64,000 nucleotides of DNA from a virus (IMGVR_UViG_3300045988_184285), one strand, 5' to 3'; numbered from the stretch's first letter, positions 1-41,186 are shown. The notes: generated from the sequence alone by a model not told the origin. A program made the numbers and translations.

Positions 1-215
1 TGGTTGAATGTTACGGGTTTCTTTTCCAAGGTTCCATAAAACCGCTGCCCGTACAAGGCATCTACCTTGTGCTCGCCATTGGCGAGCGGCACACGAATGA
101 AACGGTAGTAGCGCCCGGACGGTTTTCCGGTATCGAGAATTGTGTTGCCTTCGAACACGGATGCGCCGGATTTGATAGCCTGCTCAAAATCCTCACGAGT
201 TAAATTGATAGTCAT
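1..215 (-). CDS. hypothetical protein (3' part lies beyond window start)
   Basis: Minus-strand frame open from ATG at 213-215 to window edge, RBS AGGAAG upstream; MTINLTREDFEQAIKSGASVFEGN...; no domain recognised. Confidence 0.4.
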   Translation of the reverse strand, partial: MTINLTREDFEQAIKSGASVFEGNTILDTGKPSGRYYRFIRVPLANGEHKVDALYGQRFYGTLEKKPVTFN

Positions 216-244
216 AATTTCTTCCTTTCTGTTTTTGTTATTTT

Positions 245-991
245 TCAGCTGTTTTCTTCGATGCACAATTTGCTGCTACGAATGTTTTCCAACCATTTTT
301 CATCCATTACATTACCAAAACGATATTTCTTCTGCGACTCGTAGGACAAATCGCAGCCGGAAACGACATCACCGATGGCGTTCAAGTACAGCTCGCCGCT
401 GTAAAAGTCGATGCCGCCGGTTTTGCTGAATTCGTATTCGAGCTTATCTACATAAGGTTCACGTTTCTTATAGATATTCGAATCGAGATTCTTAGCACGT
501 CCCTCGTTGAGAAGATAATTTTTGTGAAAGTCCGTCACCTTATCATCGTAGTTGTATTTCAAACCACTGAGAATACTTGCACTTTCGCTGGAAATTTCTT
601 CATGGAAATCATCGCTGCTGATACAAAGACCACACGAATAGTCATCCTTGTCATCGCAATAATTCCACCACTCCAGACTCGCCATAGCAAGGTCAGCCAT
701 CTTATCGACGGCTTTTCCGTTAGTGACCATATAAAAGCTTCCAACGGCGATACCGCGCTCTTTGACAGCTTTCAAGGTGTATCGAATTGCCGGTATATTC
801 AGAGAGATTTCCCCACCGGTAAAGGTAAGAGAGCTGATATAAGCTTCCGTCTCAAAGCTGTCGAGAAAAGCATCGATGTACTTCTCCTGAATATCGATGC
901 TTTCGGCATCTCCGCGCAGGCAGTGCGCACAGCACATATTGCACCGACGCGTAACTTCTATGAATACGCTGTTTGCGCTATAAATACGCAT
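245..991 (-). CDS. radical SAM domain protein
   Basis: 248 aa; N-terminal CxxxCxxC (RRCNMCCAHC) plus glycine-rich SAM motif TFTGGE; RBS AGAAAGGA upstream of ATG. Confidence 0.6.
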   Translation of the reverse strand: MRIYSANSVFIEVTRRCNMCCAHCLRGDAESIDIQEKYIDAFLDSFETEAYISSLTFTGGEISLNIPAIRYTLKAVKERGIAVGSFYMVTNGKAVDKMADLAMASLEWWNYCDDKDDYSCGLCISSDDFHEEISSESASILSGLKYNYDDKVTDFHKNYLLNEGRAKNLDSNIYKKREPYVDKLEYEFSKTGGIDFYSGELYLNAIGDVVSGCDLSYESQKKYRFGNVMDEKWLENIRSSKLCIEENS

Positions 992-1009
992 TTTTTCATG
1001 TCCTTTCTG

Positions 1010-1339
1010 TTATTCTTCCGTGCAATCGTCGTAGTCATCCATGAAACTCTCGTTGCGGTCAACGACAACATTCACATCCGGCGGCGCAATTTTAGCCAGA
1101 CCATAGTTCAAGAAGAACGAGCCGGGAATGTCATCGACATCGCCCCAGTTCCAGCAACCACAGTTGATTTCAAGCTGTCGTTTGCCTTCGTCCGTCTTGA
1201 GATAATCTTTGATTGCGCCGCGCAGGACGCTTTCCGGGTCATGGATTTGCTCCGGATTATAGCTGAATTGCATCAGCGTGCATTCCGTTGTGGATAAGCC
1301 AATGGCCTCATTGGCAACAATTGTAAAAAGCTTTGTCAT
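1010..1339 (-). CDS. hypothetical protein
   Basis: ORF-track frame; start moved to internal ATG (MTKLFTIVANE...) preceded by GAGGAGG RBS. Confidence 0.5.
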   Translation of the reverse strand: MTKLFTIVANEAIGLSTTECTLMQFSYNPEQIHDPESVLRGAIKDYLKTDEGKRQLEINCGCWNWGDVDDIPGSFFLNYGLAKIAPPDVNVVVDRNESFMDDYDDCTEE

Positions 1340-1361
1340 AGTAATCCTCCTCAATAAACAG

Positions 1362-1817
1362 TCAGGCACAACGAACGCGAATGACATTATCATCATTCGA
1401 CAAGCAAACAATCACGTCCACATCCGGTCCCTCTTTCTCAAGAGCACCTTCAAGGATTGGCTTTATTTTGTGCCATTGATTTTCTGTGATTTTGCAGCCG
1501 GGGCTCATAAGCAGAATATTTGCTTCGGCCAGCTTTGCTTTCATGACCACTTGCAGGAAACAACCGTATAGGTATCCGTAATTCACCTTGTTACTTTCAA
1601 GACAAATCATATCTGCTATTACGGTCCTTTTATTGCCATAGCAGTTCACAACATGTCCCAAGTGATGCTCAGATTTGTCATACCGTACCTTGGCATCCGG
1701 AAACATGCTTTCAATAAATTCGTTTTTGAAAACACCACTGCTATCACAAAAAACACAAACGATATTTTTGCCGGAAAACTCCTGACTTGATAAACAGCTT
1801 TTTGTCTTTTTTATCAA
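1362..1817 (-). CDS. hypothetical protein
   Basis: 151 aa ORF, TTG start; downstream of class B promoter and leader hairpin. Confidence 0.45.
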   Translation of the reverse strand: MIKKTKSCLSSQEFSGKNIVCVFCDSSGVFKNEFIESMFPDAKVRYDKSEHHLGHVVNCYGNKRTVIADMICLESNKVNYGYLYGCFLQVVMKAKLAEANILLMSPGCKITENQWHKIKPILEGALEKEGPDVDVIVCLSNDDNVIRVRCA

Positions 1818-1844
1818 TTCTTCTTCATCATCCTTTCGGCGATA

Positions 1845-1881
1845 ACAAAAAATACCGCCACCTCTTACGAGATAGCGGTAT
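1845..1881 (-). terminator. leader hairpin + T-run between class B promoter and gene 1362..1817
   Basis: minus-strand 'ataccgctatctcgtaagaggtggcggtat' 7-bp stem followed by TTTTTTGTT, then RBS. Confidence 0.5.
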
Positions 1882-1923
1882 GTTGATTTTGAATTGTAAT
1901 TGTATTTTATCTATCGAATATAC

Positions 1924-1953
1924 TTAGTATATCGATTTTGCAGCAATTTGCAA
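1924..1953 (-). promoter_or_regulatory. class B promoter (TTGCAA-N16-TATACT, conserved spacer GCTGCAAA)
   Basis: minus-strand 'cTTGCAAattgctgcaaaatcgaTATACT'; member of 6-copy motif family. Confidence 0.5.
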
Positions 1954-2010
1954 GCGCAGCTATTTAGTGGCGCTTCAACTTTTTCCGGGGGTTTTATTTT
2001 TTCGCTTTAC

Positions 2011-2808
2011 TTACAGCAAACTCATCTCTGCACGATATGCATCGGCATCGTAGCCCCAGATATTACAAGCAAAATCGATTGCTGCGTTACCTTCGCTGGG
2101 ATAACCGTCGTCAACAAAATCTCCTTTGCAAAGCGCATACCAACCACAATTACTTCCGATATCCTCATCCGCATATTCTACACGAATATTGGCGTGTGGA
2201 AATTTACGGCTCAGTTCGACAATGGCGCATGTAGGCGTATTCCAAGGAGTCTTAAAGTTAACAGTGATTTCCGTATCATTTGTTCTACGGATACTCACAT
2301 CGAAGACATCCCACTTTACGCCCCAATTTGCGACACGCCAATAATACCACGAGGCATATCCATAGCTTACGGCGTTTTCCAATGTACGTTCCGCCACAGC
2401 GTCGAACTCCTCGATATTATAGGGGATACGTTTCAGGTTGATGAGTTTGCTATCTTTCACATGTTCCAGTTTGGAGCGAGCTTCCGCAGCTTCCTTGCAA
2501 ACACCAACCATATCTGATGCAGTAAGTTTTTCCTTCCTGTGCAGGAGAAAAGTTTCTCTGCAAATAGCCTTTCTTACGTTTTCCGGATACTTCTCCGGGT
2601 CAATTCCGTATTTATTTACGGCCGCCCATGCGAGCATCCTGTCACATGGCGATACGATTTGCAGTGATTCCGGCATAGGAACAACAGACTGAAGCGAAAA
2701 ATCTTTTTCGCCATCATCGTCTTTTCCCTTGACACGATTCAGAAAATCCTCCAACTCTGCCTGAGAATTGAAAGAAACAAACATGATATTCATGATATTG
2801 TTTGCCAT
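2011..2808 (-). CDS. hypothetical protein (conserved WYYWRVANWGVKWDV motif)
   Basis: 265 aa ORF, RBS AAAGGAG; no confident family assignment. Confidence 0.55.
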   Translation of the reverse strand: MANNIMNIMFVSFNSQAELEDFLNRVKGKDDDGEKDFSLQSVVPMPESLQIVSPCDRMLAWAAVNKYGIDPEKYPENVRKAICRETFLLHRKEKLTASDMVGVCKEAAEARSKLEHVKDSKLINLKRIPYNIEEFDAVAERTLENAVSYGYASWYYWRVANWGVKWDVFDVSIRRTNDTEITVNFKTPWNTPTCAIVELSRKFPHANIRVEYADEDIGSNCGWYALCKGDFVDDGYPSEGNAAIDFACNIWGYDADAYRAEMSLL

Positions 2809-2825
2809 TTATTTTCTCCTTTGTC

Positions 2826-3014
2826 TTACGCGGGTACGCGTACGCAAGAATAGTGGCAAGCTCCACAATTCAGGAACTTTGCCCGCTTCATCGCCTCATC
2901 CAAGCTGAACCGCGTCGCTTCGTTAATGTTGGCAGTATCACTCTTACACTCTACGTAAAAACGCACATCTCCAAAAAACGGGTCTTTACGGCTTAGCGCA
3001 TACATATTTTCCAA
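2826..3014 (-). CDS. small hypothetical protein (62 aa)
   Basis: TTG start with GAGGAGG RBS; a truncated copy of its 5' end recurs at 3541-3598. Confidence 0.45.
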   Translation of the reverse strand: MENMYALSRKDPFFGDVRFYVECKSDTANINEATRFSLDEAMKRAKFLNCGACHYSCVRVPA

Positions 3015-3041
3015 AATAAGTCCTCCTCAAATATACTTCTC

Positions 3042-3121
3042 TCAGAACTTCTCGAATTCCTCGCTCGGCATCTGTGCTTCCGCTTCATCCAGCAGTCTTT
3101 TGTAGGAATCGCTGGAAACAT
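3042..3121 (-). pseudogene. 3'-terminal remnant of a paralog of gene 3611..4350
   Basis: ~80 bp ~90% identical to the 3' end of 3611..4350 (…AQMPSEEFEKF), W codon replaced by stop; no 5' part. Confidence 0.5.
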
Positions 3122-3151
3122 TTCCTTTCCTTATTAGGGTATTTATTTTCG

Positions 3152-3493
3152 TCAAATGATAACGGCTTCCAATGCTACAGCACCAGACCCAATTTCATCA
3201 GCAACTTTTGATGCTGTTGCAAAATCGTGGTGAGCATATGGCCCTTGCGAATCCATATAAGTGACTCGGTAGGCATAATCTGGCTCAAATGATGGGCTTA
3301 CAATAATGTAAATACCAGTATTTAACTGATATGTGATGGCATCAGCTTTTTCGATTTGAGCGATGATTTCCTTTCGACGCTTAGCTTCCGACTGCAAGTA
3401 TTCAGATGCTGCCTCTTTAATAGGGTCACAAAGGAAAATATCGTCTGGATTACCCGTAATCGGGGGTAGGTCACCCGGATAATAGGATATCAT
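3152..3493 (-). CDS. hypothetical protein
   Basis: 113 aa ORF, RBS GGAG upstream. Confidence 0.5.
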   Translation of the reverse strand: MISYYPGDLPPITGNPDDIFLCDPIKEAASEYLQSEAKRRKEIIAQIEKADAITYQLNTGIYIIVSPSFEPDYAYRVTYMDSQGPYAHHDFATASKVADEIGSGAVALEAVII

Positions 3494-3540
3494 GCTTTCA
3501 TCTCCTTCTTTTTGTCTTCAGCGATGACTTTTTGGAACAC

Positions 3541-3598
3541 GTTAATGTTGGTAGTATCGCTCTTACGCTTTACGGCTCAACACATACATATTTTCCAA
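3541..3598 (-). pseudogene. truncated remnant of small ORF 2826..3014 (MENMYVLSRKA*)
   Basis: same RBS+TTG+MENMY start as 2826..3014 but internal ~33-bp deletion creates early stop. Confidence 0.45.
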
Positions 3599-3610
3599 AA
3601 TAAGTCCTCC

Positions 3611-4350
3611 TCAAATGTACCTCTCCCAGAACTTTTCGAATTCCTCGCTTGGCATCTGTGCTTCCGTTTCATCCAACAGTCTTTCGTAAGAATCACTGGA
3701 AACATCGGTGCCAATAAAATCGGCAACGGCATCATGACCGCGCTGCATCAAGGCGTCTTTCAGAATCGCCCAACGACATTCGTGAATGGCATCATCCAGC
3801 GTTTTGTTGCCAGCAGGCTGCCAATACTCGTCTGTCTGCTGAATTCGATAAAACTCATCCAGCGCATCATCAACATTGTTTTCGCTAAGAATATCGTCAA
3901 TAAAATTGACAGGATAATCCTTGCCGTTGATTTCCACTTCTGCATAACTGAAACAGTCGTCATCACACGGCATTGCTGCACAGGTGACATCGAAAATTTC
4001 GTGCGTTTCCTTGTTTACCTTGCAAGGCAACTGGAACGTTGCTCCTGACTCGAAGTAAGAAAAGACGACCGCTTCCTCAACATCGTTGTCGGGGCATTTC
4101 GCAGACTGGATGAATTCCGGCATAGACAGCACATCAATACTCTCTCTTCGGTCGCCCATGGCAGGATAAACCTTCATGATTGTATAACCATCATGCTGCA
4201 GCTTTCGGATAGCACGGCACAGGTCGAGATGCATTTCATGAAGACTGATGTCACTGCCTCGCCCGTCTTTTTTGGTATAGATTTCGACAACTACATCTTC
4301 AGAGGTGGTCTGAACAACATAATAGGTCTTATCATTACAAATCTTAAACA
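3611..4350 (-). CDS. hypothetical protein
   Basis: start set at ATG (MFKICNDK...) preceded by GGGAG RBS; 246 aa; acidic. Confidence 0.55.
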
Positions 4351-4372
4351 TAGCACTTATCTCCCTTCTCAA

Positions 4373-4570
4373 TCAAACAAAAGCCAGAAAATCGTTGGCC
4401 GGAATCTGTCGCTGAGCATCGTAAGCGGTGCCGTAGACATCATCACCCCAACTGATTTGCACATCCTTCGTCCACAGAGCAAGCTCGGACATTTTTGCTG
4501 CCACGGCTTTTGCGGAGCTGCAGATATACTTCTTGACGGCGTTGTTTTCTTTTACGTTAATTGTAAACAT
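4373..4570 (-). CDS. small hypothetical protein
   Basis: start at internal ATG (MFTINVKENN) with AAGGAGG RBS. Confidence 0.5.
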   Translation of the reverse strand: MFTINVKENNAVKKYICSSAKAVAAKMSELALWTKDVQISWGDDVYGTAYDAQRQIPANDFLAFV

Positions 4571-4592
4571 TTCAATTTCCTCCTTAACACAA

Positions 4593-4624
4593 CAAAAAAA
4601 CAGCCATCTCGATTGAGATGGCTG
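4593..4624 (-). terminator. leader hairpin + T8 between class B promoter and gene 4373..4570
   Basis: perfect 10-bp stem cagccatctc/gagatggctg, minus-strand TTTTTTTT follows. Confidence 0.6.
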
Positions 4625-4686
4625 CACGAACAGATTTTGAACTAAAACAAGTCAAGGAATTGATACTTTGATTTATCTTAGTTTCT

Positions 4687-4716
4687 TAATTATATCTACT
4701 TTGCAGCAATTGACAA
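4687..4716 (-). promoter_or_regulatory. class B promoter (TTGTCA-N16-TATAAT)
   Basis: minus-strand 'TTGTCAattgctgcaaagtagaTATAAT'. Confidence 0.55.
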
Positions 4717-4746
4717 GATAGCCACAACAGGAATGCAACATCGTAT

Positions 4747-4968
4747 TCACGGTACTTTTTCAACGACATCTTCACCGTAAACCACGAACAGACCAGAGCC
4801 GTTATCCCAGCGAACCATGATACTGCCGGTATCGTCTATACCTGAAACTGTGCCGAGTGTTCCAATAGGCGGAGCCTGAATATCATCCATTTTCAGCAGT
4901 TTCACGCGTGTTCCGGCTGGATATTCGGCACGGAGCGCAGCAACGATTTCTCGATTTGGAAAAATCAT
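4747..4968 (-). CDS. DUF4314-like small protein
   Basis: 73 aa; ...GTRVKLLKMDDIQAPPIGTLGTVSGIDDTGSIMVRWDNGSGL... resembles DUF4314 proteins common on Firmicutes mobile elements. Confidence 0.45.
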   Translation of the reverse strand: MIFPNREIVAALRAEYPAGTRVKLLKMDDIQAPPIGTLGTVSGIDDTGSIMVRWDNGSGLFVVYGEDVVEKVP

Positions 4969-4984
4969 AAATACACCTCGCCTC

Positions 4985-5533
4985 TTAGTATGTCACGGTG
5001 TCAAAGAACTCCTGACATTCCTCATCGTTCAACACAACACCAAAGTAGGCAACACGCTCGACGGTGGTTTCCCACACCTTAACGGTACGCGTCATAGGCT
5101 GAACGACCCACGAATGCTGTCGCCAAAGGCCATCTTCACTCAGGGCATATCCGGTCGCAATCTGACATCTGCCACGATTTGCATCCCACAGATAAGCAGC
5201 GTTCTGATGGCAACGACAATCTTCGCCCTTCTTCATGTACCTGGAGTTATAAAAAAACTGTCCTCGTTCCAGCACTTTCTCCGCATCTTCGTCACGAGTA
5301 TTGAGCAAAACCTCATCGCCACCGAAAGTTAAAATTCTGTCACGCAGAGCACGCAAAGTCTTTTTCATTTCGTTTGTGAGCCAAGGCGCGGTGGCGTCCT
5401 CGTTGTACAGCTGCATTGCCTCTACTCGTTTTTTCCATTCCTTATCCATTGGATTCCAGCGGACAGGGTTCGCAACCATATCAGGAGAGGTCATGGGCGT
5501 TTTGGCATTCCAACTAAATTTCTTATTTGCCAT
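4985..5533 (-). CDS. hypothetical protein
   Basis: start at ATG (MANKKFSWN) with AAAGGAG RBS; 182 aa. Confidence 0.5.
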   Translation of the reverse strand: MANKKFSWNAKTPMTSPDMVANPVRWNPMDKEWKKRVEAMQLYNEDATAPWLTNEMKKTLRALRDRILTFGGDEVLLNTRDEDAEKVLERGQFFYNSRYMKKGEDCRCHQNAAYLWDANRGRCQIATGYALSEDGLWRQHSWVVQPMTRTVKVWETTVERVAYFGVVLNDEECQEFFDTVTY

Positions 5534-5592
5534 TATAATACTCCTTTTCAACAAAACCGCTTACCTTTTTCAGGTAAGCGGTTATATTTTGA

Positions 5593-6255
5593 TTATGCGA
5601 GCATGGGATATATTTCTTTCTTTACCGCCCTCATAAGAGCGGCAGCATGTGCAGCGTTTTGTGCATTGCCAACACCTGCGCGAGATATTTTTGGATTCAC
5701 ACGCTCAATGAAATTTTTCTTATACGGGGCAGAAATGCTCCTTGCAGCATCGATAATCTGTTTCATGTTTTCAGCGTCGATTTTTTGCTGAACGCATAAT
5801 TCTTGTAACCGTGTGCAAAAAGCGTCTTTGTTGTCCCGTACAGAAGTAGAATGATTTTTTGTTTCTTTATGTGGGATGACTGCCTCACAGGCTATCCGTT
5901 TAACGCTTAACCATTTACTGCACATGGTCTGAATAAGCCCGTCATATCCCTTGTCTGCCGACACGATGATATAATTACTTTTCTTTCCTGTTGTGCAAAG
6001 ACTACCAAGTTTAGCAACAACGTGGAAATCCATGCTGTTTTTCCCTGCATTGGAGACGCAGAACTCTACTTGGTTGACTGGGTACTTTGCCAGAAAAACC
6101 TGCAATTCTTTAAGTGACATGTATGTGGCTTCCGGACCGATGAAGATAATCAGCTTGTCCTTTTTGGTTTTAAAATGCACTACATTTAGCCATTTCTTTT
6201 GGACATTCTCGGTATCTATCAGCCAAATGGTTCGAGTGCAGCTCACACATTTCAC
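5593..6255 (-). CDS. NYN-domain (PIN-like nuclease) protein
   Basis: WLIDTENV ... NYIIVSADKGYDGLIQ motifs typical of NYN/LabA-like domain; probable GTG start overlapping upstream stop (GTGA). Confidence 0.45.
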   Translation of the reverse strand: MKCVSCTRTIWLIDTENVQKKWLNVVHFKTKKDKLIIFIGPEATYMSLKELQVFLAKYPVNQVEFCVSNAGKNSMDFHVVAKLGSLCTTGKKSNYIIVSADKGYDGLIQTMCSKWLSVKRIACEAVIPHKETKNHSTSVRDNKDAFCTRLQELCVQQKIDAENMKQIIDAARSISAPYKKNFIERVNPKISRAGVGNAQNAAHAAALMRAVKKEIYPMLA

Positions 6256-6548
6256 CCCCACACTTCGGTGACTTTTCTGGGGATTCCGTGCTTGTCGATA
6301 CACTGCCGGTAAATTGTAAACTTACTGTTCGGGTGCGCCTTCATATAGTCAGCGCGTGCCGCGTCCGTGTTCGCAATCAGCAGATTTTTATCAGCAATAA
6401 GAACGCTTTCCCATCCGGAATCGAGAAGCGTACTGGCAACATCCTTGAAAGATACGTCTGCAGGCGTGTCGCACTTACAAACCCCTCGTGCGATAGGATG
6501 CGCAGTGGCAATGATTTTTGCTGCCGTTATCACAGTCTCGTAACTCAT
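6252..6548 (-). CDS. hypothetical protein
   Basis: 98 aa, AGGAGG RBS. Confidence 0.5.
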   Translation of the reverse strand: MSYETVITAAKIIATAHPIARGVCKCDTPADVSFKDVASTLLDSGWESVLIADKNLLIANTDAARADYMKAHPNSKFTIYRQCIDKHGIPRKVTEVWG

Positions 6549-6560
6549 AGTGTCCTCCTA

Positions 6561-6818
6561 TCACGCCACCTCGAAATACTTTTCGACATCGCTGTTGATA
6601 GAACGCGCAGGAACACCCTTGGTCTTCTCACTGTAGTAGCCACGCTTTTTCAGCGTGTTCTTAACAATAGAAATGCTCTTGTCGCTGCGCATGGTACGCT
6701 TTCTCTTTTCGATGCGTGCAGAACGAATGCGCTTTTCGTACTTCTGCATACGAACAGCGTCCATAATGATAGGAGCAGTAGTCTCCGCGACATACTCGTT
6801 AAAAGTTTTCATATTCAC
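6561..6818 (-). CDS. hypothetical basic protein
   Basis: 85 aa, RBS GGAGGA. Confidence 0.5.
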   Translation of the reverse strand: MNMKTFNEYVAETTAPIIMDAVRMQKYEKRIRSARIEKRKRTMRSDKSISIVKNTLKKRGYYSEKTKGVPARSINSDVEKYFEVA

Positions 6819-6845
6819 ATATCCTCCGTAATATATTATTTTTCT

Positions 6846-6884
6846 AAATAAAAAAGGCAGCTATTTTCTCAAAAATAGCTGCCT
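6846..6884 (-). terminator. leader hairpin + T-run between class B promoter and gene 6561..6818
   Basis: stem aggcagctattttt/aaaatagctgcct, minus-strand TTTTTTATTT follows, then RBS. Confidence 0.55.
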
Positions 6885-6973
6885 TTAGTACATTGTGATT
6901 GGCGATAATTCAATCATACACGCCCATAAAACTCTGGTACGATGCATTGTGTGATTTTATTTATCGGATAACT

Positions 6974-7003
6974 ATATATTATTAACTTTGCAGCAATTTG
7001 CAA
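6974..7003 (-). promoter_or_regulatory. class B promoter (TTGCAA-N16-TAATAT)
   Basis: minus-strand 'TTGCAAattgctgcaaagttaaTAATAT'. Confidence 0.5.
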
Positions 7004-7016
7004 GTACAGGATACAA

Positions 7017-7049
7017 TAAAAAGCGCCTCCCATATTACGGGGAAGCGCC
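7017..7049 (-). terminator. intrinsic terminator after gene 7060..7659
   Basis: hairpin ggcgcttcccc…gggaggcgc followed by TTTTT on minus strand. Confidence 0.55.
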
Positions 7050-7059
7050 TTAGTGTTAT

Positions 7060-7659
7060 TTATTCTTTGTTGTCCGAAGAAATTTTCGGAGACTTCTTCT
7101 TCTCAACGAAAGCATCAATCGTTCGGCCGAAACGATTAAGAAGCATTGCGCCAAGATAAAGAATGATGCCGCTAATCATGATACCAACATCAAGCGTCTC
7201 AAATCCTGCAAAACTCTTGCAATAAATAGAACTAACTGCGAGAGCGCCAAGCGTTGGCAGCGAAGCAATCGTTACCGTAAGTGCCGCATACACAACACTA
7301 TTCAGAACAGTACCAATACTTGCAATGATGCCGCGCTTTTTAAAAGTGCGCTGCTTATCGTAGGACATCTGATAAGCCCCGATAAGACTTGGTTCACGAA
7401 TAATGTCGCGCAGATGCAGCAGACACCACGCCAAAACAGCACACCCGATGCCGCAGCCGACCTTATAGGCGCTCATGCGAGAACCCAACAGGTCATTTGC
7501 GTTGACGGGAACGATGAACGCCAGAATGTTGAACAGGACGGCAAACAAGACGAACATTGCCATGTGGGGATTCTTGGCAGTGTTGCGAGCCTCGTTCTTT
7601 GCCTTACTTGCGACTTCCTCGGTCTGATTGTGAATTTTCACATTGAGAATCTTTTCCAT
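7060..7659 (-). CDS. membrane protein (about 4 TM)
   Basis: 199 aa, hydrophobic segments, RBS AAAGGAAAGG. Confidence 0.55.
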   Translation of the reverse strand: MEKILNVKIHNQTEEVASKAKNEARNTAKNPHMAMFVLFAVLFNILAFIVPVNANDLLGSRMSAYKVGCGIGCAVLAWCLLHLRDIIREPSLIGAYQMSYDKQRTFKKRGIIASIGTVLNSVVYAALTVTIASLPTLGALAVSSIYCKSFAGFETLDVGIMISGIILYLGAMLLNRFGRTIDAFVEKKKSPKISSDNKE

Positions 7660-7706
7660 TTTTTACCTTTCCTTTCGTGCGAACGATTTAGTTATAAATC
7701 GTTTTT

Positions 7707-8018
7707 TTAGTCGTGATAGCGGTGCGAAATACCGTATATGATTGCGAGCGCTAATGCAATGTAGATATAAAGATATCCCTTCTCAATCATGTTCAGAATC
7801 GCAATAGTTAAGTACGAAAAAGCACCGCAAGAAGAAGCGGCACTCATTTTGCCGAAAAAGAACATCACCATCTGGGAAGCGATTGCTGCAGGAATGGTAA
7901 TCTGGAAGCACCAAGCCTCAATGATTCCGTTCCAGTCGAGAGCGGCGATGAAGCTGACTCCCATGGCAAAAGTCCATAAAAACGCGGCAACGAGAACGAT
8001 ACTGTCAAACACATTCAT
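7707..8018 (-). CDS. small membrane protein (3 TM)
   Basis: start at ATG (MNVFDSIV) with GGAGG RBS. Confidence 0.5.
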   Translation of the reverse strand: MNVFDSIVLVAAFLWTFAMGVSFIAALDWNGIIEAWCFQITIPAAIASQMVMFFFGKMSAASSCGAFSYLTIAILNMIEKGYLYIYIALALAIIYGISHRYHD

Positions 8019-8073
8019 AGTAAATACCTCCATAATTTAAAGAGTTGTAAACATCGGACATCTATATAAACAG

Positions 8074-8107
8074 CAAAAAGCCGCCGATGGAACAATCCAT
8101 TGGCGGC
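8074..8107 (-). terminator. hairpin + T-run downstream of class B promoter; also candidate terminator of the sec-sortase operon
   Basis: 11-bp stem gccgccaatgg/ccatcggcggc (1 mismatch), TTTTTGCTGTTT follows on minus strand. Confidence 0.5.
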
Positions 8108-8159
8108 TCAGTTGCCGATTGCAATAATACAGTTAAATCATTTGATTTATGTTATGTTT

Positions 8160-8190
8160 CAATTATATTAACTTCGCAGCATAATGCAAG
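8160..8190 (-). promoter_or_regulatory. class B promoter (TTGCAT-N16-TATAAT)
   Basis: minus-strand 'TTGCATtatgctgcgaagttaaTATAAT'. Confidence 0.5.
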
Positions 8191-8196
8191 TGTTTT

Positions 8197-17713: not shown

Positions 17714-18208
17714 TTATCTCTTGTACTTTTCGAACACCTTGCGCGAAGGAGCTCTCGGACCGCACATCTTGCACTTTTTACTCTGCTCAACATAATCAAT
17801 GAGCATCTGACGTTCCCATTCAAGGTATTCGTCCATATTTTTTTCTTTCCATGAATCGAATTTGCCGTATGAAACACCGAGATAACTGGCGAATATGCTG
17901 ACAGCATTCAGCATATAATCATTCGGGATTACAACCCTTTTTCCGTCCAGATTGTAAGCATGTCCCGTAGTGATTTTATTTCTTGTCTGTCCTATCTTCA
18001 TTCGCCTCGTTTCTGTGTTCTTCTTTACCTGAGTTTCTCTTCTTAGGGTACTGCAGAACTTACAATATTGAGTGTTTTTGGCGGTAGAATAAAAAATCCT
18101 GCCGCATTCCTTGCATTTGCGCTCGTACGTTATGGTTTTAGGAGTTGTACTTTGTTTTTGGGTTTCTGTATGGTTGATGTTTTCAGAAGTACAATGATTC
18201 CGAGCCAT
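17714..18208 (-). CDS. zinc-ribbon protein
   Basis: 164 aa; CKECGRIF...CKFC and C-terminal CKMCG. Confidence 0.45.
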   Translation of the reverse strand: MARNHCTSENINHTETQKQSTTPKTITYERKCKECGRIFYSTAKNTQYCKFCSTLRRETQVKKNTETRRMKIGQTRNKITTGHAYNLDGKRVVIPNDYMLNAVSIFASYLGVSYGKFDSWKEKNMDEYLEWERQMLIDYVEQSKKCKMCGPRAPSRKVFEKYKR

Positions 18209-18224
18209 AATCTGTACCTCTTAT

Positions 18225-19286
18225 TTAAACGCGAGCGTCAATCAGGCAATTAAGCAGCCCGTTCGCGTCACAGCCAAACAATAAGCATCCGAACACACCA
18301 ATGGCATGTCCTTTTCTGGTAGAGAATGTTCCTGCCGTAACACCAAGATGCCCGGCAATCTGCTCATCTGTCCAGTTGTACTTTTTCCCCTCAATCATTG
18401 CAAGGATAACGTCATAATAACGTTGGCCAAGCGGGAACTGTTTCATGATTTCGATAGCCCCTCGTACGAGTTTTACATACTCCACAATGAGATAGGCATC
18501 GCTTCTGTTTTTATCAGAAACTTTGATTTTACTCAAATCTTCGTACGAAGAAGACCCAAGCAGCTTCATGGCGGGGTCCTTTGACCGTGAGGCACGATAC
18601 AGAATACGCGTGTATTCCGTAAGGAGCAGCGGAACATTATGATAAAGGCTTGCTTCTTCTACCCCGTCCACATCACTGCTTGTCATCAGGATTTTATAAT
18701 ATTCCTTGATAACACTACCTGCTGTATTGTAAACGGATTCAATGCACCGCTCGCAATACTTCATGATTTTAATGCGGCCATTCTTCGGAAGAACAGCGGG
18801 ATTCAGAAAACAGTCAAATACCTCCCGCATGCTGGAACAGTAGTCGACTTCGTACAAAAGCTCTGACCGCGATTCCTCAATAGCATCGAGAAGCATCTGA
18901 CAACTTTCGAAGTATTCTTTGCGTTTTCTGAAATGCAAAGACTCTTCCTCAATGTTCGGAGCCAGCCAGCTCTGGATGCGGCGCAGACGGGAAATGGCTT
19001 CGACGTCGCACATCTCATCGTCGTGAACGCTTTCACAGTTCTGCATCATGACATCAAGGTCTTTCGCCTGCATCATCCATTTGAGTGCCGGATACAATAT
19101 CATCAGAACAGCCGCTTCTTTCAGTTCCGGCCGCTCTTCCACGACACGATTTACACACTTCGTCAGCACATAAGAATTGGGGATGTCTCCGCCAAAGCTT
19201 CTACGCAGAACAATGTTGTCATGCATAATGGCATCGAGCAATGCGTAAAGCTGCTGTTCTTGGGCTTTATTCAATGCTTCGGACAA
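18225..19286 (-). CDS. transcriptional regulator with C-terminal sigma-70 region-4-like HTH
   Basis: C-terminus WTDEQIAGHLGVTAGTFSTRKGHAIGVF fits region-4 HTH; probable TTG start with AAAGGAGGG RBS; N-terminal 300 aa unassigned. Confidence 0.5.
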   Translation of the reverse strand: MSEALNKAQEQQLYALLDAIMHDNIVLRRSFGGDIPNSYVLTKCVNRVVEERPELKEAAVLMILYPALKWMMQAKDLDVMMQNCESVHDDEMCDVEAISRLRRIQSWLAPNIEEESLHFRKRKEYFESCQMLLDAIEESRSELLYEVDYCSSMREVFDCFLNPAVLPKNGRIKIMKYCERCIESVYNTAGSVIKEYYKILMTSSDVDGVEEASLYHNVPLLLTEYTRILYRASRSKDPAMKLLGSSSYEDLSKIKVSDKNRSDAYLIVEYVKLVRGAIEIMKQFPLGQRYYDVILAMIEGKKYNWTDEQIAGHLGVTAGTFSTRKGHAIGVFGCLLFGCDANGLLNCLIDARV

Positions 19287-22238: not shown

Positions 22239-22469
22239 ATGCCATCCACCTTTGACACTATGGTAGGAAAGCGAATCAAAAAGCAACGAATGGAAATCAA
22301 TTACAGCCAAGAACAGTTGGCGGCGAGTACAAATTGTTCCTATCGCTGCATCCAGAAATGGGAGTCAGGAAAGACGCTGCCGCGAGCTCAGATGCTATGC
22401 AATTTAGCAAAAGCCTTACATGTTTCGTCTGACTGGCTGCTGGGCATTTCCAATGACAGAAACGGTTAA
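22239..22469 (+). CDS. XRE-family HTH transcriptional regulator
   Basis: 76 aa; GKRIKKQRMEINYSQEQLAASTNCSYRCIQKWESGKTLPRAQMLCNLAKALHVSSDWLLG is a canonical Cro/CI-type HTH. Confidence 0.8.
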   Translation: MPSTFDTMVGKRIKKQRMEINYSQEQLAASTNCSYRCIQKWESGKTLPRAQMLCNLAKALHVSSDWLLGISNDRNG

Positions 22470-25502: not shown

Positions 25503-25784
25503 TTAAGTTCGATGGACTTTATTTTTCATACAACAAGGAAGGCAACAGATGCCGTATGTGTTATTGCCCCACTCGCAGTGCGCCCGACTGCAAATAACAC
25601 CGCGTTGGGCTTTGACGGTTTTCTTCTCTTCTTTCTTCTTTTCGATTTCGCCTTCCCGAAGGATGGTCTTTACTTCCTTTGTTGTGATACCATACTTTCT
25701 GGCAATCTGAACGACCGTTTTTCCTCCGTTGAATTCCTCTACAGCCTGTTCATGTGTTACGCCACAACCAAATTTTCCGTACAT
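25503..25784 (-). CDS. small HTH/cysteine-rich DNA-binding protein
   Basis: N-terminal TVVQIARKYGITTKEVKTIL HTH, Cys-rich C-terminus. Confidence 0.45.
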   Translation of the reverse strand: MYGKFGCGVTHEQAVEEFNGGKTVVQIARKYGITTKEVKTILREGEIEKKKEEKKTVKAQRGVICSRAHCEWGNNTYGICCLPCCMKNKVHRT

Positions 25785-25808: not shown

Positions 25809-25856
25809 GCAAAAAGGCCATGCGCTCTATTTCCTATAAGAAATGGCGGTATGGCC
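25809..25856 (-). terminator. putative terminator after methylase gene
   Basis: long imperfect hairpin ggccat...atggcc followed by TTTTTGCC on minus strand. Confidence 0.4.
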
Positions 25857-25868
25857 TGTTTGCCTCGC

Positions 25869-26416: not shown

Positions 26417-27055
26417 TTATTTCGTGGTCTTTGGGCCTTTTAAAAGCCCCTTGGTTCTGAGAATGTTCCGCACATATGCAAGGCGTCTTCTGCCAAAACC
26501 ATGTGCATTCTGCTTACTTTTGTTTTCGGCATAAGCCATATCAGAATACTTGATGCCGTCTTTGTAATGCTTCAAGAGATAATCTGTAACAGTCGTATCT
26601 CTGATTGCAAGAATAGCATCGACAATTCTCGCTTCTTCTTTTTTCGAATAAGGATAATCATCGATGTTATACCTGACCCCGTCCAGCCCGCAAATGATAT
26701 TCACGGGCCAACCCTTACGGAAGGCAATGTTTGCTTCGCGGATATTCCGTTCTGTCATGACATCGCCGGTCTTATCTCTTCTGTGCCTATACAATGTTCG
26801 CTGCGCACAGGCTTTGCATACGCCACGCGCATATATGATAGAAAGCCTATTACAAATAGGACATTCTTCGATTCGGACATGCTTTCCTGACTTAACGGTT
26901 TGATAATCCAATCCGTTGATGTAAGTCTTATTGTTAAAGGTGATTGTTTCCGCACCCTTGTATTCAGGGAACTCATCTCCCGTATAAGTTCCCTTCATCT
27001 CTGCGGGGAGGGTATCTGCGTCGCTTTGAAGTACGTAGAATTTCTTTTTGCTCAT
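26417..27055 (-). CDS. hypothetical protein with CxxC zinc finger
   Basis: 212 aa; CPICN...CKAC. Confidence 0.45.
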   Translation of the reverse strand: MSKKKFYVLQSDADTLPAEMKGTYTGDEFPEYKGAETITFNNKTYINGLDYQTVKSGKHVRIEECPICNRLSIIYARGVCKACAQRTLYRHRRDKTGDVMTERNIREANIAFRKGWPVNIICGLDGVRYNIDDYPYSKKEEARIVDAILAIRDTTVTDYLLKHYKDGIKYSDMAYAENKSKQNAHGFGRRRLAYVRNILRTKGLLKGPKTTK

Positions 27056-29955: not shown

Positions 29956-31044
29956 TTAGGTTTCTTCGCTGTCTTCGCTATCTTCTTCTTTGCGACTATC
30001 CTTAGAGAACCCAACAAAACCGCATGCGCCTGCAGAAATTCCAAAGATTACTGCCATGATGGGCATGATGAGTCTGTTTCGATATACAGCGCCTACAATG
30101 AAATTGGCGTTAGCTACCTGCTCCAATACATAGTGTGCAATCGCACAAATCGTAAGTTCGGAAGCATTACCGAACGATTCATCAAGACCGATGCTGAGCA
30201 GCGACATGGAATAGGTTGCGCTGGCTACATACTTGATTTCGATAGGTGCAGCGGTTTCATATACAGCTACATAACTCTTGCCTGTGTTCTTTTGGCCGTA
30301 GATAGACAGTGTACGGTAGAAACCACCCTCTGCTCTCGCCACCGGGCCGCTCGTCCATTTACCGCCTGTGATTTTGTAGGAATCACTACTCAGACCGATG
30401 GCAGACATCAAGTCATTCTTATATCCATCCCAGAGCGGCGTGGCGGGGTTGTATGGATGGATTTTTCCGAGATAGACATATGCGGTGGCACCTTCCGGAA
30501 TTACGACTTGTCCATCAATCGTGAAATCGACCCATGTATCGGTGTCCTCGACTTCATTGACCTCTTTCAGAACGCCTTCAACTTCCGTACCATCATCAAG
30601 AGTGAAGGTCTTGTTTTGCGGGGCGTTCGGTTTTTTGTCTTCGCCCTTGTACTCCACTGTCATTTCCGTAGGAATATCCGCCTGCTCCTCCGTATACTGA
30701 ACATCTTCGAGCGGCAACTCATACTGTTCTCCACCCAGCGTTACAGTATAGGTCTGAGGAACTTCTTTTACAGTCAAATCCGTATATTCTACGGTTTCTT
30801 GATACTTGGTATTGAGTTCCCTTTGCTGATAATCTACGCTGTCTTCGTCGAGGACATAGGTATTGCCGTTCTCCTCAATTTCCTTCGGAAGAGGATTGGC
30901 ATCGGCTTCTTCTTGGTCCTTGTAATTGAACTCACGAGTGATATCAATATCAACATCGCCAAGAGAAGTCAACGCTTGTGTAGAAATACATCCTACACAA
31001 AGCAGCGCACTTACAAAAGCAAGCACTCTCATTACATTTTTCAT
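29956..31044 (-). CDS. lipoprotein with C-terminal TM segment
   Basis: start at ATG (MKNVMRVLAFVSALLCVGC) lipobox; acidic T/E-rich; C-terminal hydrophobic helix. Confidence 0.6.
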   Translation of the reverse strand: MKNVMRVLAFVSALLCVGCISTQALTSLGDVDIDITREFNYKDQEEADANPLPKEIEENGNTYVLDEDSVDYQQRELNTKYQETVEYTDLTVKEVPQTYTVTLGGEQYELPLEDVQYTEEQADIPTEMTVEYKGEDKKPNAPQNKTFTLDDGTEVEGVLKEVNEVEDTDTWVDFTIDGQVVIPEGATAYVYLGKIHPYNPATPLWDGYKNDLMSAIGLSSDSYKITGGKWTSGPVARAEGGFYRTLSIYGQKNTGKSYVAVYETAAPIEIKYVASATYSMSLLSIGLDESFGNASELTICAIAHYVLEQVANANFIVGAVYRNRLIMPIMAVIFGISAGACGFVGFSKDSRKEEDSEDSEET

Positions 31045-31106
31045 AGCTTTTTTGGGCGTCTTAGCAGCTTGTCTGCTTGTACGCCGCCTCCTTTCGAATT
31101 CTCCTT

Positions 31107-31138
31107 TTATTGTATCTACTTTGCAGCAAATAGCAAAG
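31107..31138 (-). promoter_or_regulatory. class B promoter (TTGCTA-N16-TACAAT)
   Basis: minus-strand 'TTGCTAtttgctgcaaagtagaTACAAT'. Confidence 0.45.
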
Positions 31139-31169
31139 AAAAAAGCCGAGCGGCTTATCACCGCTCGGC
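31139..31169 (-). terminator. intrinsic terminator after gene 31184..31735
   Basis: stem gccgagcgg/ccgctcggc, TTTTTTC on minus strand. Confidence 0.6.
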
Positions 31170-31183
31170 ATCCCCATCACATA

Positions 31184-40765: not shown

Positions 40766-40904
40766 GTTAGTTGCCCTCCTAATAATGTGAGTGTTCTGTG
40801 GCTTGACCACAGTCGGATTTATATACACCCTTACCTACTCCCTAGTGTGCAGCCTTGATTGTAGATAAGAAAGTATATCAAAACACAGGCAATCAAATTG
40901 CATA

Positions 40905-40940: not shown

Positions 40941-41074
40941 AAAAATTTCGGCACAAAAAGGCCACCCATGAGCGCATAATCGTATTTCGTATGGACATGG
41001 ATGGCTGAAACATTAACACAGAACCTGCTTGACTATTATTTATTCTGAAAAATTTGATGCTGTATTTATATCTA

Positions 41075-41104
41075 TTATATTACTCACTTTGCAGCAGCGG
41101 TCAA
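41075..41104 (-). promoter_or_regulatory. class B promoter (TTGACC-N16-TAATAT)
   Basis: minus-strand 'TTGACCgctgctgcaaagtgagTAATAT'; in tandem upstream of the class A promoter. Confidence 0.45.
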
Positions 41105-41136
41105 TAATAATTCTGAAAAACAGAAGTTTTTTATGC

Positions 41137-41172: not shown

Positions 41173-41186
41173 TATTGTTTTACCGC

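What the first reader, a model, noticed from the sequence alone, without database searches (positions are those of the whole stretch)
1845..8190. Class B promoters with a conserved spacer element, each followed by a leader terminator (antitermination-like architecture)
Six intergenic sites share -35 (TTGCAA/TTGTCA/TTGCAT/TTGCTA/TTGACC), a conserved spacer core 'TGCTGCAAAGT', and -10 (TATAAT/TAATAT/TACAAT), all on the minus strand. They lie at 1924-1953, 4687-4716, 6974-7003, 8160-8190, 31107-31138 and 41075-41104. In the four copies within the 1-8 kb block of small hypothetical genes, a strong hairpin plus U-run terminator lies 45-90 nt downstream of the -10 and immediately before the RBS (1845-1881, 4593-4624, 6846-6884, 8074-8107). 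A promoter, short leader and terminator, with a conserved element between -35 and -10, is the layout of lambdoid PR'-qut-tR' units that need a Q-type antiterminator. The conserved spacer could be the binding site of such a factor. Small zinc-finger proteins in the window (17714-18208, 13931-14584, 26417-27055) and the regulator with a sigma region-4-like HTH (18225-19286) are candidates. The genes so controlled (1362-8018) are all uncharacterised.
Basis: inference. Interest (0 to 1): 0.65.

Follow-up and report, generated by a model that had tools for sequence, protein, structure and literature searches.

The report
Megaplasmid promoter-leader-terminator cassettes
A very common human-gut conjugative megaplasmid ('Hodor') carries dozens of copies of one stereotyped control cassette: a promoter with a plasmid-specific extra motif, a short conserved leader, and a strong terminator placed in front of the genes. 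This layout suggests that many accessory operons are switched on together by overriding termination, but the factor that would do so is not identified.

Summary
All six sites exist at the stated coordinates. They share TTGnnn-N2-TGCTGCAAAGT-N3-TAnnnT with an invariant 16-nt spacer, and a profile search finds exactly these six in the window.

The window is not a phage. It is part of a 'Hodor' conjugative megaplasmid of gut Bacillota, described in a 2026 preprint that does not mention promoters or terminators.

In related contigs I collected 41 non-redundant copies:
- 34/41 (about 38/41 by eye) have a strong hairpin plus U-run ending at +54 to +127, before the first RBS. Only 14% of random same-strand segments do.
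- Two further leader motifs appear: box A (RATAARTMAAA, +4 to +14, found only behind this promoter type) and box B (TTCAAAATC, just upstream of the hairpin).
- In diverged lineages the -35 and part of the core change, but GCAAAGT-N3-(-10) plus a leader terminator persists.

Best reading: a plasmid-wide regulon controlled by promoter-proximal termination and its override.

The strict lambda-Q reading is only partly supported:
- No -10-like pause element is enriched in the leaders.
- No Q homologue was found.

Repressor-operator, dedicated-sigma and short-RNA readings remain open.

The parts
1845..1953 (-). Cassette P1 (type II leader). -35 TTGCAA 1953-1948; core TGCTGCAAAAT 1945-1935; -10 TATACT 1931-1926; box A GATAGATAAAA 1915-1905; box B TTCAAAATC 1893-1885; terminator hairpin 1881-1852 with U-run to 1845. 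It precedes the 151-aa gene 1362-1817.
4593..4716 (-). Cassette P2 (type I leader). -35 TTGTCA 4716-4711; core 4708-4698; -10 TATAAT 4694-4689; box A GATAAATCAAA 4677-4667, which forms the 5' arm of a leader hairpin; box B 4641-4633; terminator 4625-4600 with U-run to 4593. It precedes genes 4373-4570, 3611-4351 and onward to the DUF1281_C gene 2011-2808.
6846..7003 (-). Cassette P3. -35 TTGCAA 7003-6998; core 6995-6985; -10 TAATAT 6981-6976; box A GATAAATAAAA 6965-6955; terminator 6886-6853 with U-run to 6846. An ordinary terminator for the upstream gene (7051-7020) lies just upstream of the promoter.
8074..8189 (-). Cassette P4. -35 TTGCAT 8189-8184; core TGCTGCGAAGT 8181-8171; -10 TATAAT 8167-8162; box A CATAAATCAAA 8151-8141; terminator 8109-8078 with U-run to 8074. 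It sits directly after the sortase B gene and precedes two small membrane-protein genes.
31109..31136 (-). Promoter P5. -35 TTGCTA; core 31128-31118; -10 TACAAT. It has no box A and no leader terminator, and the RBS follows directly. It is preceded by the terminator of the upstream gene (31169-31145).
40952..41104 (-). Cassette P6. -35 TTGACC 41104-41099; core 41096-41086; -10 TAATAT 41082-41077; box-A-like ATAAATACA; long-loop terminator hairpin 41005-40961 followed by CUUUUUGUG. A second, canonical promoter-like site (TTGACT-17-CATATT with TG, about 40930-40900) lies between this terminator and the 2669-aa gene.
5555..5583 (-). Internal intrinsic terminator (dG -19.4) inside the P3 transcription unit, 24 nt before the start of gene 4985-5554. 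There is no room for a promoter, so that gene can only be expressed by read-through.

Best explanation
**What it is.** These sites are copies of a repeated regulatory cassette of about 110-170 nt belonging to the Hodor conjugative megaplasmid.

**What each cassette contains.**
- A sigma-A-type promoter (TTGCnn, 16-nt spacer, TAnAnT).
- A plasmid-specific recognition element at -26 to -16 (TGCTGCAAAGT). Its deeply conserved part is GCAAAGT, always 3 nt upstream of the -10.
- A short leader with conserved boxes. Box A is RATAARTMAAA at about +4 to +14. Box B is TTCAAAATC, a few nt upstream of the hairpin.
- A strong intrinsic terminator placed before the RBS of the first gene.

**How it most likely works.** The cassette acts as a promoter-proximal termination checkpoint. 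RNA polymerase starting here makes a 55-130-nt RNA and stops, unless termination is overridden by a trans-acting factor that recognises the conserved cassette elements. Those elements could be the DNA core at the promoter and/or the leader boxes in RNA or in non-template DNA. Dozens of accessory operons spread over the plasmid would then respond together. Terminators that sit inside operons without a following promoter (for example 5583-5555) fit a processive override.

**Shown:** the anatomy, its statistical non-randomness, its family-wide and cross-lineage conservation, and the coupling of core, box A and terminator.

**Inferred:** initiation at these sites by host RNA polymerase, efficient termination, the existence of an override, and the identity of the factor.
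For: - **Motif is non-random.** 7 hits against 1.5 expected, and the profile finds only the six sites. The spacer is 16 nt in all six.
- **Family size.** 41 non-redundant copies in the window plus related IMG/VR contigs, with consensus c-TTGC-nn-tT-TGCTGCAAAGT-nrA-TAtAmT and a conserved A at about +1.
- **Coupling to terminators.** 34/41 have a hairpin (dG <= -12) plus U-run ending at +54 to +127, against 42/300 random same-strand segments. Folding shows about 38/41. All lie before the first RBS.
- **Box A.** It lies at a fixed 19-20 nt from the core. When searched independently of the core, it is found almost only behind the core (21/24).
- **Box B.** Present in 18/41 leaders against about 0.05 expected per leader.
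- **Selection within type II leaders.** In 11 type II leaders, boxes A and B and the terminator are conserved while the stretch between them varies in sequence and length. 3 of 13 stem pairs show compensatory double changes.
- **Diverged lineages.**
  - L146 has TGTTGCAAAGT plus box A plus a terminator.
  - L147 and L150 have six GCAAAGT-N3-TAnAnT sites, with the -35 lost or shifted. Each is followed by a hairpin plus U-run 60-110 nt downstream.
- **Read-through-dependent genes.** Terminators at 5583-5555, 25857-25815 and 10394-10364 lie 21-31 nt before the next start codon.
- **Published RNA data.** Metatranscriptome profiles were read as co-transcription of the giant gene with its three downstream neighbours, across the terminators at 41173, 32779 and 31833 and the P6 cassette (PMC12934698).
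- **Precedent.** Gram-positive conjugative plasmids are already known to use leader attenuators plus processive antitermination (PMC13401043, PMC8191782).
Against: - There are no transcription start-site or termination data for these sites.
- No antiterminator-family protein was found in about 250 ORFs examined. Most of the >300-kb plasmid was not available to me.
- P5 uses the same promoter without a terminator.
- P6 is followed by a second promoter, so that cassette could be a stand-alone short transcription unit.
- The cassettes are evidently diverged copies of one ancestor; even the terminator stems share a CGCUAUCUC...GAGAUAGCG theme. Part of the conservation is therefore common descent rather than selection.
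- Terminators in front of promoter-less genes elsewhere could simply mean that terminators on this plasmid are generally leaky.
Confidence: 0.5

Rival explanations
1. Strict lambda-Q-type mechanism. A DNA-binding antiterminator binds the spacer element. It is loaded onto RNA polymerase held at a sigma-dependent promoter-proximal pause and makes it resistant to the leader terminator and to later terminators.
For: - A conserved DNA element lies between the -35 and -10 at a fixed phase to the -10. It is kept even where the -35 is lost.
- A terminator always lies downstream.
- Internal terminators without promoters suggest processivity.
- Box A sits at a fixed distance in the initial transcribed region, where lambdoid pause elements lie.
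Against: - A -10-like hexamer with A2 and T6 is not enriched or positioned at -4 to +25: 11/41 score at least 5/6 against 11.3 expected. Box A itself lacks the essential T.
- There are no Pfam Q families (Antiterm, Phage_antitermQ) in the window or in other Hodor ORFs.
- The candidate proteins are unsupported.
- The system is dozens of units on a plasmid, not one late operon.
- Box B next to the hairpin is unexplained by this model.
Confidence: 0.15
2. Global repressor regulon. The core contains the palindrome TTTGC-T-GCAAA at -28 to -18. It would be the operator of a dimeric plasmid repressor that shuts all these promoters in established hosts, giving a burst of expression after transfer, as with KorA/KorB of RK2 or ArdK of R388. 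The leader terminators would be constitutive partial attenuators or insulators.
For: - The consensus has an 11-bp palindrome overlapping the spacer of otherwise good sigma-A promoters.
- The sites are dispersed in front of many small accessory operons of a conjugative plasmid.
- An Xre-type HTH gene lies at 22239-22469.
- P5 shows the promoter can be used without a terminator.
Against: - The palindrome decays in diverged lineages (TGTTGC, TGTCGC), while the asymmetric GCAAAGT and its 3-nt phase to the -10 are kept.
- Several distant copies have no -35 at all. This suggests the core is a positive promoter element, not just an operator.
- The model does not explain why about 90% of copies carry a strong terminator and conserved leader boxes.
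Confidence: 0.15
3. Dedicated sigma factor (or sigma-appropriating factor). GCAAAGT-N3-TAnAnT is an extended promoter element read by an element-encoded sigma-70-family protein. The cassettes are its regulon, and termination control is a separate layer.
For: - Distant relatives with the same GCAAAGT-N3-(-10) promoters, mostly without a usable -35, encode a distinct sigma-70-family protein next to sortase.
- The phase between the core and the -10 is fixed.
Against: - No homologue of that sigma was found by tblastn in 1.4 Mb of fetched DNA, including the window, or in IMG/VR Hodor contigs.
- Window promoters have good sigma-A-like -35 and -10 hexamers at 16 nt.
Confidence: 0.1
4. The cassettes are genes for short non-coding RNAs of 55-130 nt, with an A-rich 5' box, a hairpin and a U tail. 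Downstream genes would be expressed from read-through or from other promoters.
For: - P6 is followed by its own terminator and then a separate canonical promoter.
- The 5' and 3' parts of the RNA are conserved, with a variable middle.
- Box A forms a hairpin arm in about 10 leaders.
Against: - In nearly all copies the terminator is followed within 20-60 nt by an RBS and gene, with no other promoter.
- There is no Rfam match.
- The variable region is short and of low complexity, and no common fold is shared between the two leader types.
Confidence: 0.07

Closest known systems
Lambdoid phage PR'-QBE-tR' late units (Q antitermination)
   Same: A promoter carries a conserved DNA element between the -35 and -10. 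A short leader follows, then a strong intrinsic terminator before the genes. Further terminators lie downstream and must be read through.
   Different: No -10-like pause element and no Q homologue. There are dozens of units on a conjugative megaplasmid rather than one late operon. Leader boxes A and B are additionally conserved.
pLS20-family conjugation operon control: zipper-type leader attenuator plus ConAn processive antitermination (PMC13401043, PMC8191782)
   Same: A conjugative plasmid of Gram-positive bacteria in which a promoter is followed by a leader terminator. Terminators lie inside operons and are bypassed. The proposed role is tight control and suppression of spurious transcription.
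   Different: pLS20 has one 456-nt leader and a 260-600-bp conAn2 RNA at the head of one 32-kb operon. Here the leaders are 55-130 nt, repeated more than 40 times, tied to a special promoter motif, and sit in front of accessory operons. No long alternative 'zipper' pairing is evident.
PeSL (promoter-early stem-loop) cassettes of T4-type phages (PMC2839356, PMC4122927)
   Same: A conserved composite promoter-plus-stem-loop module is repeated between small ORFan genes in hyperplastic regions. The window's small-gene block likewise shows indels, replacements and an inversion between near-identical copies, some with edges at cassette or terminator sequences.
   Different: In PeSLs the stem-loop lies upstream of the promoter, the normal terminator-then-promoter order. 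Here it lies downstream of the promoter, inside the transcript.
ops/RfaH, LoaP and other NusG-paralogue systems; HK022 put and EAR RNAs
   Same: A short conserved leader element upstream of terminators confers read-through on long accessory operons, including plasmid tra operons. This comparison rests on my own knowledge of the field.
   Different: No NusG/KOW protein was found in the ORFs examined. Boxes A and B have no similarity to ops, and there is no Rfam hit to EAR or others. The promoter motif is an additional element.
Global plasmid regulons with operators embedded in many promoters (RK2 KorA/KorB, R388 ArdK/StbA, Inc18 omega)
   Same: One short conserved DNA motif is embedded in many dispersed promoters of a conjugative plasmid, including blocks of small establishment or accessory genes. 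This comparison rests on my own knowledge of the field.
   Different: Those systems act by repression only and have no obligatory leader terminator. Here the core behaves like a fixed-phase promoter element and is conserved where the -35 is lost.

Membership tests
Bacterial sigma-70/sigma-A-type promoter | -35-like and -10-like hexamers separated by 16-18 nt, upstream of a gene on the same strand | tested here: met
   All six sites have TTGnnn, a 16-nt spacer and TAnnnT, and are co-oriented with the downstream genes. Actual initiation is not testable with these tools.
Intrinsic (Rho-independent) terminator | G+C-rich hairpin immediately followed by a U-run | tested here: met
   P1-P4 have dG -18.9 to -22.0 and 7-9 U. 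P6 has dG -18.3. 34/41 family members pass at dG <= -12, against 14% of random segments.
Lambdoid Q-dependent late promoter unit | Conserved factor-binding DNA element between the -35 and -10 | tested here: inconclusive
   A conserved 11-mer lies at -26 to -16 in fixed phase with the -10. Protein binding cannot be tested here.
Lambdoid Q-dependent late promoter unit | -10-like sigma-dependent pause element in the initial transcribed region | tested here: not met
   The best -10-like hexamer (A2 and T6 required) at -4 to +25 scores at least 5/6 in 11/41 sites, against 11.3 expected from shuffles, with no fixed position. Box A lacks the T at the last position.
Lambdoid Q-dependent late promoter unit | Q-family antiterminator protein encoded nearby | tested here: not met
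   No Q-family Pfam hit in window proteins, in the precomputed Pfam of all called genes of the equivalent 21-kb loci, or in the Pfam families listed for 146 further Hodor ORFs (top 25 of 59 families over all 146; 25 of 28 for the 53 proteins of 140-260 aa). Only part of the plasmid was available.
Lambdoid Q-dependent late promoter unit | Intrinsic terminator between the promoter and the first gene | tested here: met
pLS20-type ConAn / zipper attenuator | Long leader (about 450 nt) with a long stem extendable into an antiterminator, plus a 260-600-bp conAn2 RNA and the ConAn1 protein at the head of the conjugation operon | tested here: not met
   Leaders here are 55-130 nt with at most one small 5' hairpin plus the terminator. 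A ConAn1 homologue was not searched for, because no reference sequence was at hand.
PeSL cassettes of T4-type phages | Stem-loop located just upstream of the cassette's own promoter | tested here: not met
   Here the hairpin lies 45-110 nt downstream of the -10.
Known RNA families (riboswitches, T-box, ANTAR targets, EAR, sRNAs) | Match to an Rfam covariance model at the gathering score | tested here: not met
   No match at gathering score over the whole window. Only sub-threshold chance-level hits in 1700-8300.
Hodor conjugative megaplasmid (context of the finding) | SecY/SecG/SecE, trigger factor and sortase B module; a giant protein of about 7300 aa and one of about 2650 aa with MBG domains; ParM; size over 200 kb; human gut origin | tested here: met
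   ORFs of 7323 and 2669 aa are. Near-identical contigs of 207-346 kb come from human gut metagenomes and IMG/VR. The published description is PMC12934698.

The most novel reading that the evidence does not exclude
A promoter-coupled antitermination regulon of a new kind. An unidentified element-encoded factor (sigma-like, Q-like, or something without known relatives) reads GCAAAGT at -22 to -16 together with the -10. It makes only those polymerases that start at cassette promoters resistant to the obligatory leader terminator, and to later terminators. This would insulate and co-regulate more than 40 accessory operons. The system would be conserved across deeply diverged gut megaplasmid lineages and have co-evolved leader boxes.
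Probability: 0.25. Interest if true: 0.8.

Novelty: new variant of a known kind. Interest (0 to 1): 0.6.

Why it matters
- **Prevalence of the element.** Hodor megaplasmids are among the most prevalent large mobile elements of the human gut. The exact SecY protein of this window occurs in 2294 blocks of the protein collection. The describing preprint reports Hodor reads in more than 9000 metagenomes. Nothing has been reported about how their more than 300 genes are controlled.
- **A regulatory code to test.** A single stereotyped cassette in front of dozens of accessory operons offers a testable code, made of the DNA core, box A, box B and the terminator.
- **A route to the regulator.** It gives a handle to find the unknown regulator, for example by DNA or RNA pull-down.
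- **Annotation.** It gives a way to annotate transcription units in these uncultured elements.
- **Mechanistic interest.** If read-through is coupled to the promoter, this would be a multi-copy, plasmid-borne counterpart of phage Q-type control without the sigma-pause signature. That would interest researchers working on transcription mechanisms.
- **Genome plasticity.** The repeated cassettes may also drive the modular gene shuffling seen in the small-gene blocks.

Tried and rejected
1. **Phage origin: rejected.** There was no match in 50,697 phage records and PHROG hits were weak or unknown. The gene content and literature identify a conjugative megaplasmid that had been mis-filed among huge phages.
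2. **Known plasmids: no match.** PLSDB gave no match to 20 kb of the window, and none to two cassettes in distant mode.
3. **Exact 19-mer in 185,579 species genomes.** There were nine hits, all in unrelated contexts and consistent with chance.
4. **Literature search for the motif string.** It returned only primers and unrelated sequences.
5. **Sigma-54, Spo0A-box, cre and other known operator consensus sequences.** I compared these by eye with the core and saw no convincing match. This rests on my own knowledge and was not a formal test.
6. **A palindrome overlapping the -10 and +1 region.** It is seen in P1-type copies but absent from many others, so I dropped it (alignment).
7. **The 353-aa 'sigma r4-like' protein.**
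   - Only five hits, all 52-98% identical to it.
   - No PDB sequence hit.
   - AF2 mean pLDDT 58.8.
   - Foldseek best E = 0.16.
   - Pfam at E <= 10 shows no sigma domain.
   - hhalign against a true sigma gives a probability of 0.65%.
8. **Search for NusG, Q or sigma domains in 146 ORFs from cassette-rich Hodor loci.** None was listed. Only 25 of 59 families were displayed in the first call, so absence is not proven.
9. **The sigma factor of distant relatives.**
   - No homologue by tblastn in the DNA in hand.
   - None in IMG/VR Hodor contigs.
10. **An intrinsic antiterminator (alternative pairing of box A with the terminator 5' arm).** Only 4-5 weak A-U or G-U pairs are possible, so this is not convincing.
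11. **Integron attC-like or ssDNA-promoter (Frpo-like) readings.** I considered and rejected both. There is no long imperfect palindrome spanning the cassette, and the -35 and -10 are collinear in duplex form.

Full report
**1. Observation**

Reading the minus strand of 1-8400, 30900-31260 and 40700-41260 shows all six sites as described. Every site has TTGnnn, 2 nt, TGCTGCAAAGT (one substitution each in P1 and P4), 3 nt, then TAnnnT. That gives an invariant 16-nt spacer.

The 11-mer with up to 1 mismatch occurs 7 times against 1.5 expected, and 0 of 100 shuffles reach 7. The seventh hit is on the other strand inside the sortase gene. An nhmmer profile made from 41 family members recovers exactly the six sites (E = 2e-12 to 4e-5) and no others in 64 kb.

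P6 has one too (41005-40961). Only P5 runs straight into an RBS.

**2. What the window is**

It is not a phage:
- There is no match in INPHARED or PLSDB.
- Pfam finds SecY, an FKBP/trigger-factor protein, an actin-like ParM/Alp7A, Dam, flotillin, DUF1281_C, PIN7 and radical SAM.
- Pfam also finds MBG repeats in a 2669-aa protein next to a 7323-aa ORF.
- The 323-aa protein at 8197-9168 is a sortase.

Near-identical copies lie on 207-346-kb contigs from human gut metagenomes and in IMG/VR.

This matches the 'Hodor' conjugative megaplasmids of gut Bacillota described in a February 2026 preprint (PMC12934698). Those elements were indeed pulled out of a huge-phage collection. The paper contains no occurrence of 'promoter', 'terminator' or 'antitermin'.

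**3. The motif is a family-wide cassette**

A pattern scan of IMG/VR and extraction from the fetched loci gave 41 non-redundant sites. They occur in clusters of 3-6 per 13-15 kb in blocks of small genes, and always co-oriented with those genes.

The consensus is c-TTGC-nn-tT-TGCTGCAAAGT-nrA-TAtAmT, then 6 nt, then a conserved A (the likely +1). After that comes box A, RATAARTMAAA, at a fixed 19-20 nt from the core.

The core conservation in this set is biased, because the loci were fetched by the core. I therefore re-seeded with the -10 plus box A only. 21 of 24 hits carried the core, and the other three look like chance. Box A is thus coupled to this promoter type.

**4. Coupling to terminators**

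With a hairpin-plus-U-run detector, 34/41 sites have a terminator (dG <= -12) ending at +54 to +127. Only 42/300 random same-strand 190-nt segments from the same loci do. Inspection of the folds raises this to about 38/41. All terminators precede the first RBS-associated start codon.

Two leader types recur:
- **Type I (for example P2).** Box A is the 5' arm of a hairpin closed by a downstream GAUUUAUUUU-like arm.
- **Type II (for example P1).** Box A is unpaired.

A second motif, box B (TTCAAAATC), lies a few nt upstream of the terminator stem in 18/41 leaders, against about 0.05 expected per leader.

In an alignment of 11 type II leaders, boxes A and B and the terminator are conserved. The stretch between the boxes varies in sequence and length, and three stem pairs show compensatory double changes.

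The terminator stems of many cassettes share a CGCUAUCUC...GAGAUAGCG theme. The whole promoter-leader-terminator unit is therefore a duplicated and diverged module.

**5. Diverged lineages**

- **L146.** This Hodor lineage has a sortase 68% identical to the window's. It has TTGC-actt-TGTTGCAAAGT-tcg-TATGAT, then GATAAATAAAA, then a terminator.
- **L147 and L150.** These more distant relatives have a sortase about 50% identical, and L147 comes from a 345-kb contig. They carry six sites of the form (TGTC/AGAC/TGAC)GCAAAGT-N3-TAnAnT.
  - In two of them a TTGAC(A/T) abuts the core, giving a 14-nt spacer.
  - In four there is no -35.
  - All six are followed 60-110 nt downstream by a hairpin plus U-run.
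  - Several are preceded by an AAAUCUGUC-like sequence resembling box B.

The invariant features are therefore GCAAAGT at a fixed 3 nt from the -10, and the leader terminator. The fixed phase, and persistence without a -35, suggest the core is read together with the -10 by the transcription machinery. It does not look like merely a repressor operator.

**6. Other signs of read-through**

Three further strong terminators lie only 21-31 nt before the next start codon, with no room for a promoter: 5583-5555, 25857-25815 and 10394-10364. The first of these lies inside the P3 unit.

The preprint's metatranscriptome profiles were read as co-transcription of the giant gene with its three downstream neighbours. 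That stretch crosses the terminators at 41173, 32779 and 31833 and the P6 cassette. This support is indirect and weak.

**7. Testing the Q-type reading**

- **Pause element.** A defining feature of lambdoid units is a -10-like pause element in the initial transcribed region. It is absent as a class: 11/41 sites have a hexamer matching at least 5/6 with A2 and T6, against 11.3 expected from shuffles, and at scattered positions.
- **Antiterminator proteins.** No Q, NusG or sigma domains appear in the window proteins. None appear in the precomputed Pfam of the equivalent loci. None are listed for 146 ORFs from cassette-rich loci.
- **What those loci do encode.** NrdD, ThyX, NAD-ligase, topoisomerase, NADAR, RNase H, Bro-N/ANT and many ORFans.
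  - Its only five hits are 52-98% identical proteins; the ones looked up lie in the syntenic block of diverged relatives.
  - It has no PDB sequence hit.
  - Its AF2 model is weak, with pLDDT 58.8.
  - It has no significant Foldseek hit.
  - It has no sigma Pfam hit at E <= 10.
- **The zinc-finger proteins.** They have no informative hits.
- **Rfam.** It finds nothing.

**8. A lead**

The distant relatives encode a distinct sigma-70-family protein next to sortase. I could not find a homologue in the Hodor DNA available. Whether G1 and G2 Hodors have one is open.

**9. Interpretation**

The best-supported explanation (confidence about 0.5) is a plasmid-wide regulon in which a special sigma-A-type promoter is obligatorily followed by a leader terminator. 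Downstream accessory operons would then be expressed only when termination is overridden through the conserved cassette elements.

The sequence anatomy, the statistics and the conservation are shown. Initiation, termination efficiency, the override and the factor are inferred.

Rivals:
- A strict Q-type mechanism (0.15).
- A global repressor operator with constitutive attenuators (0.15).
- A dedicated sigma (0.10).
- Stand-alone short RNAs (0.07). P6, with a second promoter after its terminator, is the best case for this.

A role of the repeats in modular gene shuffling, as for PeSLs, is compatible with all of these. The small-gene block differs between near-identical plasmids by insertions, replacements, a deletion and an inversion, and some edges lie in terminator or cassette sequences. 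In PeSLs, however, the stem-loop precedes the promoter.

**10. Comparison and novelty**

The logic resembles:
- Lambda PR'-tR'.
- The leader attenuator plus ConAn processive antitermination of pLS20-type plasmids.
- ops/RfaH- or LoaP-type leaders.

It is not a member of any of these by the features tested. It is best called a new variant of a known kind of control, found on a recently described and extremely prevalent element whose regulation has not been studied.

Noticed in passing
window 1-8400 compared with L137-L142: The small-gene block is hyperplastic between plasmids that are about 97% identical. Differences: a ~420-nt insertion between window 8016 and 7965; replacement of 5572-4681, with one edge in terminator 5583-5555 and the other at the P2 +1 region; loss of the PIN7 gene (6249-5635); and a 5.6-kb inversion (7174-1514). 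Cassette or terminator repeats may mediate the shuffling.
   Followed up: partly
window 5555-5583, 25815-25857, 10364-10394 (minus strand): Strong intrinsic terminators lie 21-31 nt before the next start codon with no room for a promoter. The downstream genes (4985-5554, 25503-25784, trigger factor 9180-10343) appear to depend on read-through, or on a promoter overlapping the hairpin.
   Followed up: partly
window 40900-40930 (minus strand): A canonical promoter-like site (TTGACT-17-CATATT with an upstream TG) lies between the P6 leader terminator and the 2669-aa MBG-repeat gene. The P6 cassette may therefore be a separate short transcription unit.
   Followed up: no
L147 10840-11892; L150 10001-11020; L149 292-1374: Distant relatives of the megaplasmid encode a distinct sigma-70-family protein directly after sortase. 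In L149 it is followed by type I-C cas genes. The family is well separated from primary sigma factors (E = 1e-107, then 1e-35). These relatives use GCAAAGT-N3-(-10) promoters that mostly lack a -35.
   Followed up: partly
window 41187-63158 and 32819-40828 (minus strand): ORFs of 7323 aa and 2669 aa (MBG_2 repeats), next to a dedicated SecY/SecE, trigger-factor and sortase B module. These are the published hallmarks of Hodor megaplasmids.
   Followed up: yes
window 22239-22469 (+ strand): A 76-aa Xre-type HTH protein (HTH_3/HTH_19) is divergently oriented from the ParM-like gene. It is a possible plasmid repressor and was not examined further.
   Followed up: no
L142 7055-8158: An IS605-family TnpB/OrfB insertion is present in one plasmid copy, between the homologues of window genes 13931-14584 and 13280-13795.
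   Followed up: no
window 8678-8688 (+ strand): A seventh one-mismatch copy of the 11-mer (TGCTGCAAAAT) lies inside the sortase gene on the opposite strand, without promoter context. It is probably chance.
   Followed up: yes
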